Sequence record: MN850566.1 | Direction: 5' to 3' (one strand) | Source of the DNA: Escherichia phage garuso | DNA: 64,000 nucleotides | In this document: positions 61,977-62,285 of the stretch, piece by piece | Layout: every line of letters begins with the position of its first letter | How positions within the stretch are numbered: the first letter of the stretch is position 1 | Position numbers and translations under genes: made by a program | The notes under the pieces: model-generated | What the model was told of the DNA's origin: nothing | Databases searched by the model: none | Seen by the model: only the letters and a program-made list of their open reading frames with translations

Positions 61977-62053
61977 TACGGGGCGTATCTCAGCGGTCTT
62001 CTAAACCGCCGTTAACCGAGTAAGTGGAGTATGCGGGTTCGAGTCCTGCCGCC
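61977..62053 (+). tRNA. non-canonical tRNA-like element (Arg TCT-type anticodon hairpin)
   Basis: Good acceptor CGGGGCG/CGCCTCG, T-arm GCGGG-TTCGAGT-CCTGC and CCA, but only clear internal hairpin is GCGGT-CTTCTAA-ACCGC in D-arm position. Confidence 0.35.
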
Positions 62054-62202
62054 TCGACCAATTTAGTTAGCAGATTACTTAGACGACCTTATCGGGTCTC
62101 CGTGTAAGGAGGTGGTCTGTATCTCATGTTTTCCAGAACATGTAAATAATCTGAGAAGGGGCTTTACAGTGTTGTGAAAATACGGTAAGCTTCGAATTAT
62201 AG

Positions 62203-62285
62203 TGTGGGACGATGTTAAGACTCTAAGGCATGAGCAACGGCCTCCAAAACCGTTTCAAAGTGGTTCAACTCCTCCGTCCCATGCC
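62203..62285 (+). tRNA. tRNA-Trp-like (anticodon CCA), atypical
   Basis: Acceptor GTGGGAC/GTCCCAT plus CCA; anticodon arm ACGGC-CTCCAAA-ACCGT; oversized D region and weak T-stem; may be pseudogene. Confidence 0.4.

What the first reader, a model, noticed from the sequence alone, without database searches (positions are those of the whole stretch)
61977..62285. Two non-canonical tRNA-like genes and two short-arm tRNAs with Leu-type anticodons
The element at 61977-62053 has a good acceptor stem, T-arm and CCA but no recognisable D-arm and an Arg(TCT)-type anticodon hairpin displaced toward the 5' end. The element at 62203-62285 has a Trp(CCA) anticodon arm but an oversized D region and weak T-stem. 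tRNAs at 62646-62723 (TAG) and 63225-63302 (CAA) fold as short-variable-arm tRNAs although bacterial Leu tRNAs are normally long-arm. These may be degenerate tRNAs, tRNA mimics or errors of manual folding.
Basis: inference. Interest (0 to 1): 0.4.

Follow-up and report, generated by a model that had tools for sequence, protein, structure and literature searches.

The report
Rewired arginine tRNA family in phages
The odd "tRNA-like" gene in this Felix O1-type phage belongs to a widespread, phage-only family of arginine tRNAs that lack the normal D hairpin and are wired differently; this probably working non-cloverleaf tRNA sits next to an unusual tryptophan tRNA and two short-armed leucine tRNAs.

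Summary
The window is a Felixounavirus tRNA cluster.

- **Element A (61979-62060).** It is not degenerate. About 100 distinct relatives occur in many unrelated phage groups and in metagenomes, and almost never in cellular genomes.
  - They share a 7-bp acceptor stem, a T arm and an anticodon arm, all with abundant compensatory changes.
  - They have no D hairpin. A short helix (CTCA/CGAG here) closes around the anticodon arm instead. Its middle pair is U-A, A-U, G-C or C-G and is never broken.
  - A D-loop-like AAnYGGA segment follows and runs straight into the T stem.
  - Anticodons are UCU, CCU or ACG, all arginine. One contig carries all three.
  - In sister phages the same slot holds a canonical tRNA-Arg(UCU).
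  - I read it as a functional arginine tRNA with a permuted core. Expression and charging are untested.
- **Element B (62204-62286).** It is a conserved tRNA-Trp(CCA)-like gene confined to Ounavirinae. It has a 9-nt linker where two nucleotides normally sit.
- **The two Leu tRNAs.** They are ordinary cloverleaves with short variable loops. They keep the Escherichia coli LeuRS identity elements, and this form is common in phages.

I found no publication describing A's architecture.

The parts
61979..62060 (+). Element A: non-cloverleaf tRNA-Arg(UCU) gene, 82 nt including the encoded CCA
   Evidence: Rfam tRNA 31.7 bits with the D arm deleted. My covariance model R1 scores it 101.4 bits, against 36 bits or less for canonical tRNAs. 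It is 100% identical in FelixO1 and many Felixounavirus records.
61979..61985 (+). A: acceptor stem 5' strand (CGGGGCG). It pairs with 62050-62056; A73 is at 62057 and CCA at 62058-62060.
   Evidence: 6 of the 7 pairs show compensatory changes and 98% of cells are paired in 81 sequences.
61986..61988 (+). A: TAT connector (U8 A9-like) from the acceptor stem to the short helix
   Evidence: Invariant in the BLAST-derived set from more than 7 phage groups. In the pattern-derived sets it was fixed by the search pattern.
61989..61992 (+). A: 5' strand CTCA of the long-range D-like helix. It pairs with CGAG at 62017-62020.
   Evidence: In 81 sequences the middle pair is U-A 73, A-U 5, G-C 3, with none broken. 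C-G also occurs in L114 and A-U in the Vibrio phage. The outer pair is A.C, A-U or C.A.
61993..62009 (+). A: anticodon arm. Stem GCGGT/ACCGC, loop CTTCTAA, anticodon TCT at 62000-62002.
   Evidence: All 5 pairs covary. Family anticodons in the 81 aligned sequences are TCT 76, CCT 2, ACG 2, ACT 1.
62010..62016 (+). A: 7-nt linker CGTTAAC between the anticodon stem and the 3' strand of the D-like helix
   Evidence: C-[G/A/T]-TTAA-Y in nearly all members. One divergent member (L062) has TCA instead.
62017..62020 (+). A: 3' strand CGAG of the D-like helix
   Evidence: See 61989-61992.
62021..62032 (+). A: 12-nt D-loop-like segment TAAGTGGAGTAT (A14 A15 .. G18 G19 A20-like) that runs directly into the T stem
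   Evidence: AATTGGA is identical to the D loop of the canonical tRNA-Arg(UCU) allele in a sister phage. GGA is kept even in the divergent members.
62033..62049 (+). A: T arm (GCGGG TTCGAGT CCTGC)
   Evidence: 3 pairs show compensatory changes and the loop is TTCRANY in all members.
62204..62286 (+). Element B: tRNA-Trp(CCA)-like gene. It comprises acceptor 62204-10/62276-82, G73 at 62283, CCA at 62284-86, 9-nt linker GATGTTAAG at 62211-19, D stem CTC 62221-23/GAG 62232-34, GG loop 62224-31, anticodon CCA 62244-46, and T arm 62259-75 with a T.T mismatch at 62261.
   Evidence: 99.1% of cells are paired, 8 pairs show compensatory changes and the slid controls give 0. ARAGORN in mitochondrial mode calls Trp(cca). 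Seventeen distinct variants, all in Ounavirinae-like phages.
62646..62723 (+). tRNA-Leu(TAG), class-I shape with a 5-nt variable loop, A73, D loop AATTGGTAA
   Evidence: ARAGORN and Rfam, 40 bits.
63225..63302 (+). tRNA-Leu(CAA), class-I shape with a short variable loop, A73, D loop AATTGGCA
   Evidence: ARAGORN and Rfam, 44 bits.
61746..61774 (+). Near-consensus sigma-70 promoter-like site (TTGACA-17-TATAGT) about 205 nt upstream of A
   Evidence: 11 of 12 consensus matches. This is a consensus match only; function is not shown.

Best explanation
**Element A** is a working phage tRNA for arginine. It would read AGA, and AGG by wobble. Its core is wired differently from every cloverleaf tRNA.

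- The acceptor stem, T arm and anticodon arm are standard.
- The 5' D-stem strand (CTCA) runs straight into the anticodon stem.
- Its partner strand (CGAG) comes only after the anticodon arm and a 7-nt linker. The D-like helix therefore extends the anticodon arm instead of closing a D loop.
- The D-loop sequence (AAnYGGA, carrying G18, G19 and the arginine determinant A20) follows that strand and leads directly into the T stem.
- Relative to a canonical tRNA-Arg, the anticodon arm and the D loop have swapped places across the 3' strand of the D stem.

Inferred consequences, none shown:
- The helix stacks on the anticodon stem as the D stem normally does.
- The GG segment docks on the T loop.
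- An L-like shape results that host RNase P, the CCA enzyme, ArgRS, EF-Tu and the ribosome can all use.
- It supplies AGA decoding to a phage that uses AGA for about a quarter of its Arg codons.
- It takes the place of the canonical phage tRNA-Arg(UCU) found in the same slot in sister phages.

Why this form is kept is speculative. One possibility is resistance to a host or rival tRNA-targeting nuclease that reads the canonical D arm or elbow. Another is spread by hitch-hiking with adjacent homing endonucleases.

**Element B** is, by the same logic, a probable tRNA-Trp with a near-normal cloverleaf and a 9-nt connector in place of U8-N9.

**The two Leu tRNAs** are ordinary functional tRNAs. E. 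coli-type LeuRS does not need the long variable arm.
For: **Shown for A**
- Rfam calls A a tRNA only with the D arm deleted and 20 nt inserted.
- BLAST finds A at 83-100% identity in 262 phage records. These include Felixounavirus, jumbo Asteriusvirus-like phages, Demerecviridae, Vequintavirinae, Stephanstirmvirinae and a Vibrio phage.
- Pattern scans add viral and metagenome contigs, about 100 distinct sequences in all.
- On 81 distinct sequences my structure has 94.2% of cells paired and 433 double-sided changes. No shuffle out of 500 reaches this, and slid controls give 33-46%.
- The new helix's middle pair takes all four Watson-Crick forms and is never broken.
- Anticodons in the 81 aligned sequences are TCT 76, CCT 2, ACG 2 and ACT 1. 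Contig L114 carries three members with CCT, TCT and ACG.
- The discriminator is G or A in 75 of 81. GGA is kept in all members, including divergent ones. These match the bacterial Arg identity set A/G73, A20, C35, U/G36 (PMC9976931).
- In 170 loci, all 1048 neighbouring tRNA genes lie on the same strand. CCA is encoded in 57 of 81.
- The canonical tRNA-Arg(TCT) occupies exactly the same slot in MET-P1-301 and in 114 phage records. The others share only the flank.
- The FelixO1 RefSeq annotation has no other Arg(TCT) or Trp tRNA.
- AGA makes up 26% of Arg codons in the window's ORFs.
- Only 3 hits occur in 185,579 species genomes, all on MAG contigs.
- The E. coli translation machinery can use a D-armless tRNA (PMC11551756).

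**Shown for B**
- Covariation supports all four helices.
- G73, the CCA anticodon and A1-U72 in most copies match bacterial Trp identity.

**Shown for Leu**
- A73, A15-U48 and G18G19 are present, and the long arm is dispensable for E. coli LeuRS.
- In my phage loci 42 of 75 distinct Leu tRNAs are short. None of 48 Ser tRNAs and none of 24 Tyr tRNAs are.
Against: - There are no expression, processing, aminoacylation or decoding data for any of these RNAs.
- The 3D model is inference: stacking, GG to T-loop docking, and the equivalence of A62028 to A20.
- RNAalifold and the single-sequence MFE fold prefer a small local hairpin (62016-18/62025-27). It shares G62018 with my helix and is compatible with the data through one-sided changes only.
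- Many 'invariant' positions in the large alignment were fixed by my search patterns. Only the smaller BLAST-derived set and the covariance-model hits are free of that bias.
- A few contigs carry both an A-type and a canonical Arg(UCU or CCU) tRNA, so replacement is not universal.
- One member has the anticodon ACT.
- A synthetic D-armless tRNA was unstable in E. coli because of PNPase.
- The window's copy of B has a T.T mismatch in an already weak T stem. Its 31.39 pair is always mismatched.
Confidence: 0.65

Rival explanations
1. A (and perhaps B) is a tRNA mimic that is not used in translation. It would act as a decoy or sponge that binds an arginine-tRNA-specific host factor. Candidates are a colicin-D-like or other Arg-tRNA nuclease, a modification enzyme, or ArgRS itself. 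It would protect or perturb the real tRNA pool.
For: - The core is non-canonical while the anticodon loop, T arm and acceptor end are strictly conserved.
- Phage tRNAs are known to counter host tRNases such as PARIS, OLD and retrons.
- Nucleases that hit all Arg isoacceptors exist (own knowledge: colicin D), which could also explain several Arg anticodons.
Against: - A sits in the slot of a canonical decoder, which is then absent.
- One contig carries a full UCU/CCU/ACG set on this scaffold, as expected of decoders.
- The ArgRS identity elements, encoded CCA and a purine discriminator are kept.
- In the published cases I read, rescue was by replacement tRNAs, not by inhibition.
Confidence: 0.15
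2. The odd fold has no adaptive value. A is a functional or semi-functional tRNA allele that spreads between phages because it is linked to free-standing HNH homing endonucleases. These would cut the canonical tRNA-Arg allele and drag A along by gene conversion.
For: - Unrelated HNH-family ORFs start within about 30 nt downstream of A in FelixO1, Roth37, Kamaji, SE_PL-like and several metagenome contigs.
- The two alleles are swapped precisely at the tRNA borders.
- Identity of 83-90% between unrelated phage families implies horizontal transfer.
Against: - Most A loci, including this window, have no endonuclease gene next to A.
- HNH genes are common throughout phage tRNA clusters, for example at 61167-61661 here.
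- Hitch-hiking does not explain the strict maintenance of every helix and of arginine-only anticodons.
- This rival explains how A spreads rather than what it does, so it is compatible with the best explanation.
Confidence: 0.15
3. A and B are decaying tRNA pseudogenes, or canonical tRNAs that were simply misfolded by hand.
For: - Standard tRNA finders miss them.
- Some records label A 'tRNA-OTHER Nd_NNN'.
- B in this window has an extra T-stem mismatch.
- Genuine tRNA debris exists nearby.
Against: - Compensatory changes keep all helices intact in about 100 A sequences and 12 B sequences.
- A's sequence is unrelated to the canonical allele it replaces.
- No canonical D arm can be drawn. The Rfam alignment deletes it.
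Confidence: 0.03

Closest known systems
Canonical bacterial and phage tRNA-Arg(UCU), for example the allele in Escherichia phage MET-P1-301 at the same genomic slot
   Same: Same anticodon loop (GGTCTTCTAAA shared), same D-loop sequence AATTGGA, a T loop of the usual TTCRA type (TTCGAAT in the canonical allele, TTCGAGT in the window), 7-bp acceptor stem, purine discriminator, encoded CCA, same position and strand in the tRNA cluster.
   Different: In A the D stem does not close the D loop. It encloses the anticodon arm, and the D-loop sequence lies 3' of it and replaces the variable loop. The stem sequences are unrelated.
Metazoan mitochondrial D-armless tRNAs (bovine/human mt tRNA-Ser(AGY), nematode mt tRNA-Ser(UCU))
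   Same: No D hairpin. A short connector links the acceptor and anticodon stems. They decode AGN codons (PMC7609411; PMC11551756).
   Different: The mitochondrial tRNAs simply lack the D-loop nucleotides and the D/T-loop contact, and they need co-evolved mitochondrial factors. A keeps a D-like helix and a GG-A segment, has a normal T arm, is longer than a normal tRNA, and would have to work with the unmodified host bacterial machinery.
Circularly permuted tRNA genes (Cyanidioschyzon merolae, some Archaea)
   Same: The order of tRNA segments in the gene differs from the canonical order (PMC3218864 listed; own knowledge).
   Different: There the 3' half precedes the 5' half, and processing restores a canonical mature tRNA. 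In A the ends are normal and the permutation is internal (anticodon arm versus D loop). No bacterial pathway is known that could re-order it, so the mature RNA should itself be non-canonical.
allo-tRNAs and tRNA-Sec (8/4, 9/3, 9/4 acceptor/T geometries)
   Same: Natural bacterial or phage tRNAs that depart from the 7/5 cloverleaf and were found by metagenome mining (PMC5389517).
   Different: They keep all four arms in the normal order. A keeps 7/5 but changes the connectivity of the core.
Synthetic D-armless 'mini HisT' evolved for use in E. coli
   Same: It shows that bacterial aaRS, EF-Tu and ribosomes can use a tRNA without a D arm.
   Different: It is artificial, lacks any D-loop substitute, and is unstable (PNPase-sensitive). 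The authors state that natural armless tRNAs exist only in mitochondria.
Animal mitochondrial tRNA-Leu with a short variable loop (comparison for the two Leu tRNAs)
   Same: Leu anticodon, A73, class-I shape.
   Different: The phage Leu tRNAs must be charged by bacterial LeuRS. The review read here says Leu tRNAs carry long arms everywhere except animal mitochondria, so the phage cases are an unlisted exception. They are routinely annotated as tRNA-Leu all the same.

Membership tests
tRNA (Rfam RF00005) | Score at or above the curated gathering threshold (29 bits) | tested here: met
   A scores 31.7 bits. The Leu tRNAs score 40 and 44 bits. B has no RF00005 hit, and its best match is tRNA-Sec at 21.3 bits against a threshold of 47, so B alone fails this test.
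tRNA (cloverleaf) | 7-bp acceptor stem, discriminator, 3' CCA (encoded or added) | tested here: met
   A: 61979-85/62050-56, A73, CCA. B: 62204-10/62276-82, G73, CCA. Both covary.
tRNA (cloverleaf) | T arm with a 5-bp stem and a TTCRANY loop | tested here: met
   A: GCGGG TTCGAGT CCTGC, with covariation. B: 4 bp plus an A.C in the consensus, weakened by a T.T in the window.
tRNA (cloverleaf) | Anticodon arm: 5-bp stem, 7-nt loop with U33 and purine 37 | tested here: met
   A: loop C-U-U-C-U-A-A, and all 5 pairs covary. B: loop C-U-C-C-A-A-A, but the 31.39 pair is always mismatched and 26-44 is paired instead.
tRNA (cloverleaf) | D arm: a local hairpin of 3-4 bp closing an 8-11-nt loop with G18G19, between position 9 and position 26 | tested here: not met
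   A has only 7 nt between the acceptor and anticodon stems. The Rfam alignment deletes the arm. The D-like strands pair around the anticodon arm. B meets this feature with a 3-bp stem but has 9 nt instead of 2 before it.
Class II (long variable arm) tRNA | A self-contained stem-loop of more than 10 nt between the anticodon and T stems | tested here: inconclusive
   RNAalifold draws a 3-bp hairpin there, supported only by one-sided changes. The compensatory 12-41 pair uses the same stretch for pairing with the 5' connector, which argues against a class II reading.
Bacterial tRNA-Arg identity set (A/G73, A20, C35, U/G36; PMC9976931) | C35 and U36 or G36 | tested here: met
   All 81 sequences have C35 and T36 or G36.
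Bacterial tRNA-Arg identity set | Purine discriminator | tested here: met
   G 51, A 24, T 4, C 2 of 81. The window has A.
Bacterial tRNA-Arg identity set | A20 in the D loop | tested here: inconclusive
   An A follows GG in every member, including divergent ones, and AATTGGA equals the canonical D loop. That it occupies the structural position 20 is inferred, not shown.
Bacterial tRNA-Arg (function) | Aminoacylation with arginine and decoding of Arg codons | not testable with these tools
   Needs biochemistry.
Mitochondrial-type D-armless tRNA | The D arm is replaced by a short connector, with no G18G19 to T-loop contact and a reduced length | tested here: not met
   A is 79 nt plus CCA, keeps a GG-A segment and a canonical T loop, and has a covarying D-like helix. 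ARAGORN's mitochondrial mode, which allows D-replacement loops, does not call it.
Bacterial tRNA-Trp identity (G73, C34 C35 A36, first base pair; PMC9976931) | G73, the CCA anticodon and A1-U72 | tested here: met
   B has G73 and CCA in all 12 sequences. The 1-72 pair is A-U in 8, G.U in 3 (including the window) and G-C in 1.
E. coli tRNA-Leu identity (A73, A15-U48, G18G19, A20a; long arm not required; PMC9976931) | A73 and the D-loop and Levitt-pair elements | tested here: met
   Leu(TAG): A73, D loop AATTGGTAA, variable loop ending in T. Leu(CAA): A73, D loop AATTGGCA (no A20a), variable loop ending in T. In the related phage Sf14, tRNAscan-SE isotype models score both as Leu.

The most novel reading that the evidence does not exclude
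Element A represents a natural, abundant class of translationally active tRNAs whose secondary structure is not a cloverleaf. The anticodon arm and the D loop have swapped positions. Such a tRNA would be charged by ordinary bacterial ArgRS and used by ordinary bacterial ribosomes. It would have been selected in phages because the rewired core escapes a host or rival-phage tRNA-targeting nuclease, or a decay pathway, that recognises the canonical D arm or elbow. Element B and the short-armed Leu tRNAs would be further examples of phages remodelling the tRNA core while keeping synthetase identity elements.
Probability: 0.3. Interest if true: 0.9.

Novelty: new variant of a known kind. Interest (0 to 1): 0.8.

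Why it matters
Textbooks and recent papers state that all bacterial-system tRNAs are cloverleaves and that armless tRNAs exist only in mitochondria (PMC11551756). A conserved, phage-wide arginine tRNA with a permuted core would be a natural counter-example that works with unadapted bacterial machinery.

- **Tests it opens.** It gives a direct way to ask which parts of tRNA architecture ArgRS, RNase P, EF-Tu, modification enzymes and the ribosome really need.
- **Annotation.** Standard annotation undercounts phage tRNAs. FelixO1's reference annotation lacks A and B, and an HNH ORF is drawn across A.
- **Phage-host conflict.** It may point to a new axis of the conflict over tRNAs.
- **Synthetic biology.** It offers a ready-made orthogonal-looking scaffold.

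Tried and rejected
- **ARAGORN.** Standard, relaxed (-ps, -ps80) and mitochondrial modes never find A. The -ps80 call over B (anticodon 'agca') is meaningless.
- **Single-sequence folding.** It gave no significant z-scores for any of the four RNAs, which is usual for tRNAs and uninformative.
- **RNAalifold.** It did not recover the long-range helix. It chose a local 3-bp hairpin with only one-sided changes. I kept this as a rival local fold.
- **Weak Rfam hits.** The matches to tmRNA, permuted tmRNA, MIR473 and plastid UTR families around the elements are below threshold. I judged them chance or mere hairpins.
- **One wasted scan.** The 14-base pattern ACGATGTTAAGACNC for B returned mostly random hits. 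After filtering, only Ounavirinae-like copies remained.
- **Pairing of A's TATCTCA with TGGAGTA.** I rejected it. It needs a C.A mismatch and is not supported in the Vibrio phage, whereas CTC pairing with the first GAG covaries.
- **A class II (long variable arm, SerRS-type) reading of A.** I rejected it for the same reason.
- **RNA-level re-ordering, as for permuted algal tRNA genes.** I rejected it because the ends are normal and no such pathway is known in bacteria.
- **Other amino-acid identities on this scaffold.** An anticodon-agnostic pattern and covariance model R1 found only Arg anticodons plus one ACT.
- **Literature.** Seven full-text searches, including searches for the sequence motifs themselves, found no description of this RNA.
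- **The upstream DUF2828 protein.** A PDB sequence search found nothing.
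Full report
**Context.** The window is a Felixounavirus (about 96% identical to Salmonella phage FelixO1 and many E. coli, Salmonella and Shigella relatives). Positions 59843-63383 form a co-oriented tRNA cluster. ARAGORN finds 18 tRNAs there, all with an encoded CCA. The finding concerns two stretches that ARAGORN skips and two Leu tRNAs that it calls.

**Element A: what is there.**
- The gene is 61979-62060, not 61977-62053.
- Read directly from the sequence, the parts in order are:
  - acceptor CGGGGCG
  - TAT
  - CTCA
  - anticodon arm GCGGT-CTTCTAA-ACCGC
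  - CGTTAAC
  - CGAG
  - TAAGTGGAGTAT
  - T arm GCGGG-TTCGAGT-CCTGC
  - acceptor CGCCTCG
  - A73
  - CCA
- Rfam's tRNA model passes its threshold (31.7 against 29 bits). It does so only by deleting the D arm (4 nt for 15 model positions) and inserting 20 nt after the anticodon stem.
- ARAGORN fails in every mode, including the mitochondrial mode that allows D-replacement loops.

**Element A: not an isolated oddity.**
- In Escherichia phage MET-P1-301 the same slot, with the same flanks, holds a canonical 77-nt tRNA-Arg(TCT) of unrelated stem sequence. It has the same anticodon-loop context and a D loop AATTGGATA.
- A BLAST search with that canonical allele finds it complete in 114 phage records. 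About 120 others share only the 31-nt upstream flank, meaning they carry the A-type allele.
- A BLAST search with A finds 262 records. Beyond Felixounavirus, these include:
  - jumbo phages of about 350 kb (SE_PL, PBECO4, EC.P1)
  - Demerecviridae (Roth37, Spivey, Kamaji)
  - Vequintavirinae (KB57, KpS8, W70)
  - Stephanstirmvirinae (phi92, VEcB, SD2)
  - a Vibrio phage

  All are at 82-90% identity and almost always unannotated.
- A few records label it 'tRNA' or 'tRNA-OTHER Nd_NNN' over exactly the 82-nt span.
- Pattern scans of IMG/VR and JGI metagenomes raised the count to about 100 distinct sequences from wastewater, freshwater, marine and soil samples.
- A scan of one genome for each of 185,579 bacterial and archaeal species found three hits, all on MAG contigs. 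The family is essentially phage-specific.
- In 170 loci, 139 have canonical tRNAs within 3 kb. All 1048 neighbouring tRNA genes are on the same strand as A.

**Element A: structure.**
- The first alignment of ten BLAST-derived sequences, with no pattern bias, already showed two things. Compensatory changes occur throughout the acceptor, anticodon and T stems. Two invariant blocks stand out: GTATCTCA and CGTTAAYCGAGTAAnTGGAGTATG.
- In that alignment the Vibrio phage has CAC for CTC together with GTG for the first GAG.
- A scan that left all six helix positions free confirmed the pairing. Genuine members are always C-N-C / G-N'-G, with N-N' being T-A (most), A-T or G-C.
- The covariance-model search added C-G in two members of contig L114.
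- On 81 distinct sequences this pair is U-A 73, A-U 5, G-C 3, with none unpaired.
- The whole structure has 94.2% of cells paired and 433 double-sided changes. No shuffle out of 500 reaches this, and slid controls give 33-46% paired.
- A fourth pair flanks the helix: A.C in most, A-U in five, and C.A in the L114 members.
- RNAalifold and the MFE fold draw a local 3-bp hairpin (YCG/YGG) instead. It shares one G with my helix and shows only one-sided C/U changes opposite G. I keep it as a rival local fold. It cannot explain the 12-41 covariation.
- **Caveat.** In the large alignment, the invariance of TAT, TTAA, TAA and GGAGTAT is partly imposed by my search patterns. The unbiased evidence for these blocks is. 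The divergent covariance-model hits show what can vary. L062:2689-2766 has TCA instead of CGTTAAYC. L074:13348-13429 has the loop AATTGGATAGAACAT.

**Element A: reading the architecture.**
- The 5' block T-A-T-C-T-C-A resembles canonical U8-A9-(10)-C11-U12-C13-A14.
- GAG resembles G22-A23-G24.
- The following AATTGGA is identical to the D loop of the canonical sister allele (A14 A15 U16 U17 G18 G19 A20).
- So the two D-stem strands still pair with each other. What they enclose, however, is the anticodon arm. The D-loop sequence comes after the 3' strand and leads into the T stem, taking the place of the variable loop.
- In one sentence: the anticodon arm and the D loop have swapped places.
- Inferred, not shown:
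  - The short helix extends the anticodon stem coaxially, as D stem and anticodon stem stack in normal tRNA.
  - The GG segment reaches the T loop.
  - The 7-nt linker bulges at the junction, giving an L-like molecule of normal dimensions.
- A tandem-duplication-plus-deletion origin from a canonical tRNA-Arg would produce exactly this internal permutation. This too is inference.

**Element A: function.** Several independent comparative signals point to a decoding arginine tRNA.
- **Anticodons.** In the 81 aligned sequences they are TCT 76, CCT 2, ACG 2 and ACT 1. Contig L114 carries three members with CCT, TCT and ACG, and the divergent member in L062 has ACG. The scaffold goes with arginine, not with one codon.
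- **Identity elements.** The bacterial arginine determinants listed in the identity review are A/G73, A20, C35 and U/G36, with A20 the main one for E. coli ArgRS (PMC9976931). They are present as follows:
  - C35 with U36 or G36 in all members
  - a purine discriminator in 75 of 81
  - an A directly after GG in every member
- **Replacement.** A replaces the canonical AGA decoder in the same slot. FelixO1's annotated set of 22 tRNAs has no other Arg(TCT).
- **Codon demand.** The window's ORFs use AGA for 26% and AGG for 9% of Arg codons. The related phage Sf14 over-uses AGA relative to its host (PMC12482277).
- **Feasibility.** E. coli's translation machinery can use an engineered D-armless tRNA, although PNPase destabilises it. 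The same paper states that all known bacterial tRNAs are cloverleaves and that natural armless tRNAs exist only in mitochondria (PMC11551756).
- **What is missing.** Nothing shows expression, processing, charging or decoding. A near-consensus promoter-like site lies about 205 nt upstream.
- **Why the fold is kept.**
  - Published work shows phage tRNAs rescuing infection from host tRNases (PARIS, OLD, retrons, PrrC). Escape from a structure-reading nuclease is therefore a reasonable but untested motive.
  - HNH endonuclease genes of several unrelated families start just downstream of A in a minority of phages. This could explain its horizontal spread and the clean allele swap.

**Element B.**
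- The gene is 62204-62286. Its parts, in order, are:
  - acceptor GTGGGAC/GTCCCAT
  - G73
  - CCA
  - 9-nt linker GATGTTAAG
  - A
  - D stem CTC/GAG around TAAGGCAT
  - C
  - A26
  - anticodon stem ACGG(C)/(A)CCGT, with 31.39 mismatched and 26-44 paired
  - loop CTCCAAA
  - variable TTCAA
  - T arm AGTGG-TTCAACT-CCTCC
- It occurs only in Ounavirinae-like phages: Felixounavirus, Mooglevirus and a Yersinia phage.
- On 12 distinct sequences 99.1% of cells are paired. Eight pairs have compensatory changes. Examples:
  - D-stem middle pair U-A 7 and A-U 5
  - anticodon stem AACGG/CCGTT, GTAAG/CTTAC and GTAGG/CCTAC
  - T-stem 50-64 G-C and U-A
  - acceptor 1-72 and 2-71 in the Yersinia phage

  Slid controls give none.
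- The anticodon CCA, G73 and (in most copies) A1-U72 match bacterial Trp identity.
- Neither FelixO1 nor Sf14 has an annotated tRNA-Trp.
- The window's copy, together with two metagenome contigs, has G-to-T at 62261, which gives a T.T in the T stem.
- I read B as a probable tRNA-Trp with an expanded 8-9 connector, with less confidence than for A.
- A and B share the motif GTTAA-N immediately 5' of the strand that leads into the TAA..GG loop, and both have an A.C at the 10.25-like position. I cannot explain this. The motif is dispensable in one divergent A relative.

**Leu tRNAs.**
- Both are normal cloverleaves of 78 nt with short variable loops. Both have A73, A15 with a U at the end of the variable loop, and G18G19.
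- According to the identity review, E. coli LeuRS needs A73 and the D/T-loop tertiary elements. It does not need the anticodon or the long arm.
- In Sf14 the orthologous tRNAs score best as Leu in tRNAscan-SE isotype models.
- Among distinct ARAGORN calls in the phage loci I had fetched, 42 of 75 Leu tRNAs are 80 nt or shorter. None of 48 Ser and none of 24 Tyr tRNAs are. This sample is biased towards loci that carry A.
The short arm is a common phage trait that fits known LeuRS biology.
- It does contradict the general statement that Leu tRNAs have long arms everywhere except animal mitochondria.

**Verdict.**
- The finding is confirmed and upgraded.
  - The Leu part is ordinary, though under-appreciated.
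  - B is a lineage-restricted non-canonical tRNA.
  - A is a member of a large, apparently undescribed family of phage arginine tRNAs with a permuted core.
- I searched full text seven times, including for the sequence motifs themselves, and found no description. Subscription-only literature was not searchable.
- I classify A as a new variant of a known kind: a tRNA with a new secondary-structure topology. It is not filed as a member of the cloverleaf class, because the D-hairpin criterion was tested and not met.

Noticed in passing
window 60744-60830: Genuine tRNA debris. There is an anticodon-arm plus T-arm fragment (TTTCT-CCGGTAA-AGAAA, GAAGG-TTCGATT-CCTTC; Rfam tRNA 22 bits, partial) with no acceptor partner. 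It is followed by what looks like the 5' half of another tRNA (gtcgagt tg gtgt aatggta gcac). It is a useful contrast to the intact elements A and B.
   Followed up: partly
window 61746-61978: A near-consensus sigma-70 promoter-like site (TTGACA-17-TATAGT) is followed by a roughly 200-nt non-coding leader before element A. The leader is conserved in the sister phage that carries the canonical Arg allele. I did not examine whether the leader is itself a structured RNA.
   Followed up: no
window 62390-62645: A 256-nt non-coding spacer lies between tRNA-Ser and tRNA-Leu(TAG). It contains a terminator-like hairpin (aaagacc-ttttta-ggtcttt + T run, about 62556-62582) and a long imperfect hairpin (about 62580-62645), which produced a sub-threshold Rfam MIR473 hit. 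These may be processing or termination signals inside the tRNA cluster.
   Followed up: no
window 58262-59677 (+): The gene directly upstream of the tRNA cluster encodes a 471-aa DUF2828 + DUF7788 protein. It is annotated 'RNA-binding protein' in FelixO1 and has no sequence match in the PDB. Whether it acts on the phage tRNAs is unknown.
   Followed up: partly
window 61167-61661 (+); L001 (FelixO1) 2648-3040: An HNH-type endonuclease ORF sits between tRNA-Met and tRNA-Ile, and its end overlaps the start of tRNA-Ile (61655). In FelixO1 a further HNH ORF is inserted right after element A, and its annotated start lies inside A's 3' part. This is probably a mis-set start, because A was not recognised.
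   Followed up: partly
L114 (metagenome contig Ga0255783_10000721): 4102-4183, 8598-8679, 11201-11282 (- strand): One phage contig carries three A-type tRNAs with anticodons CCT, TCT and ACG. Two of them have the helix CCC/GGG and a C.A in place of A.C at the flanking pair. This amounts to a near-complete Arg isoacceptor set on the non-canonical scaffold.
   Followed up: partly
L062:2689-2766 and L074:13348-13429: Two divergent relatives of A score 55-58 bits with my model. The first (anticodon ACG) has only TCA as the linker. The second (anticodon TCT) has a longer, more canonical-looking D-loop segment, AATTGGATAGAACAT. They may be evolutionary intermediates.
   Followed up: no
window 62011-62015 and 62214-62218: A and B share GTTAA-N just 5' of the helix strand that leads into the TAA..GG loop. 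The strand is GAG in A and CTC in B. Both also have an A.C mismatch at the 10.25-like position. I could not decide between a shared structural module, common descent and coincidence.
   Followed up: partly
phage loci L001-L198 (ARAGORN survey): Short-variable-arm tRNA-Leu genes are common in diverse phage contigs (42 of 75 distinct). No tRNA-Ser (0 of 48) and no tRNA-Tyr (0 of 24) is short.
   Followed up: partly
window 63970-64000: The window ends in what looks like the start of a further tRNA (gggattagtttacaaggttaaaacctcggt). In FelixO1 the cluster continues with Gln, Leu(TAA), Gln, His, Phe and Cys.
   Followed up: no
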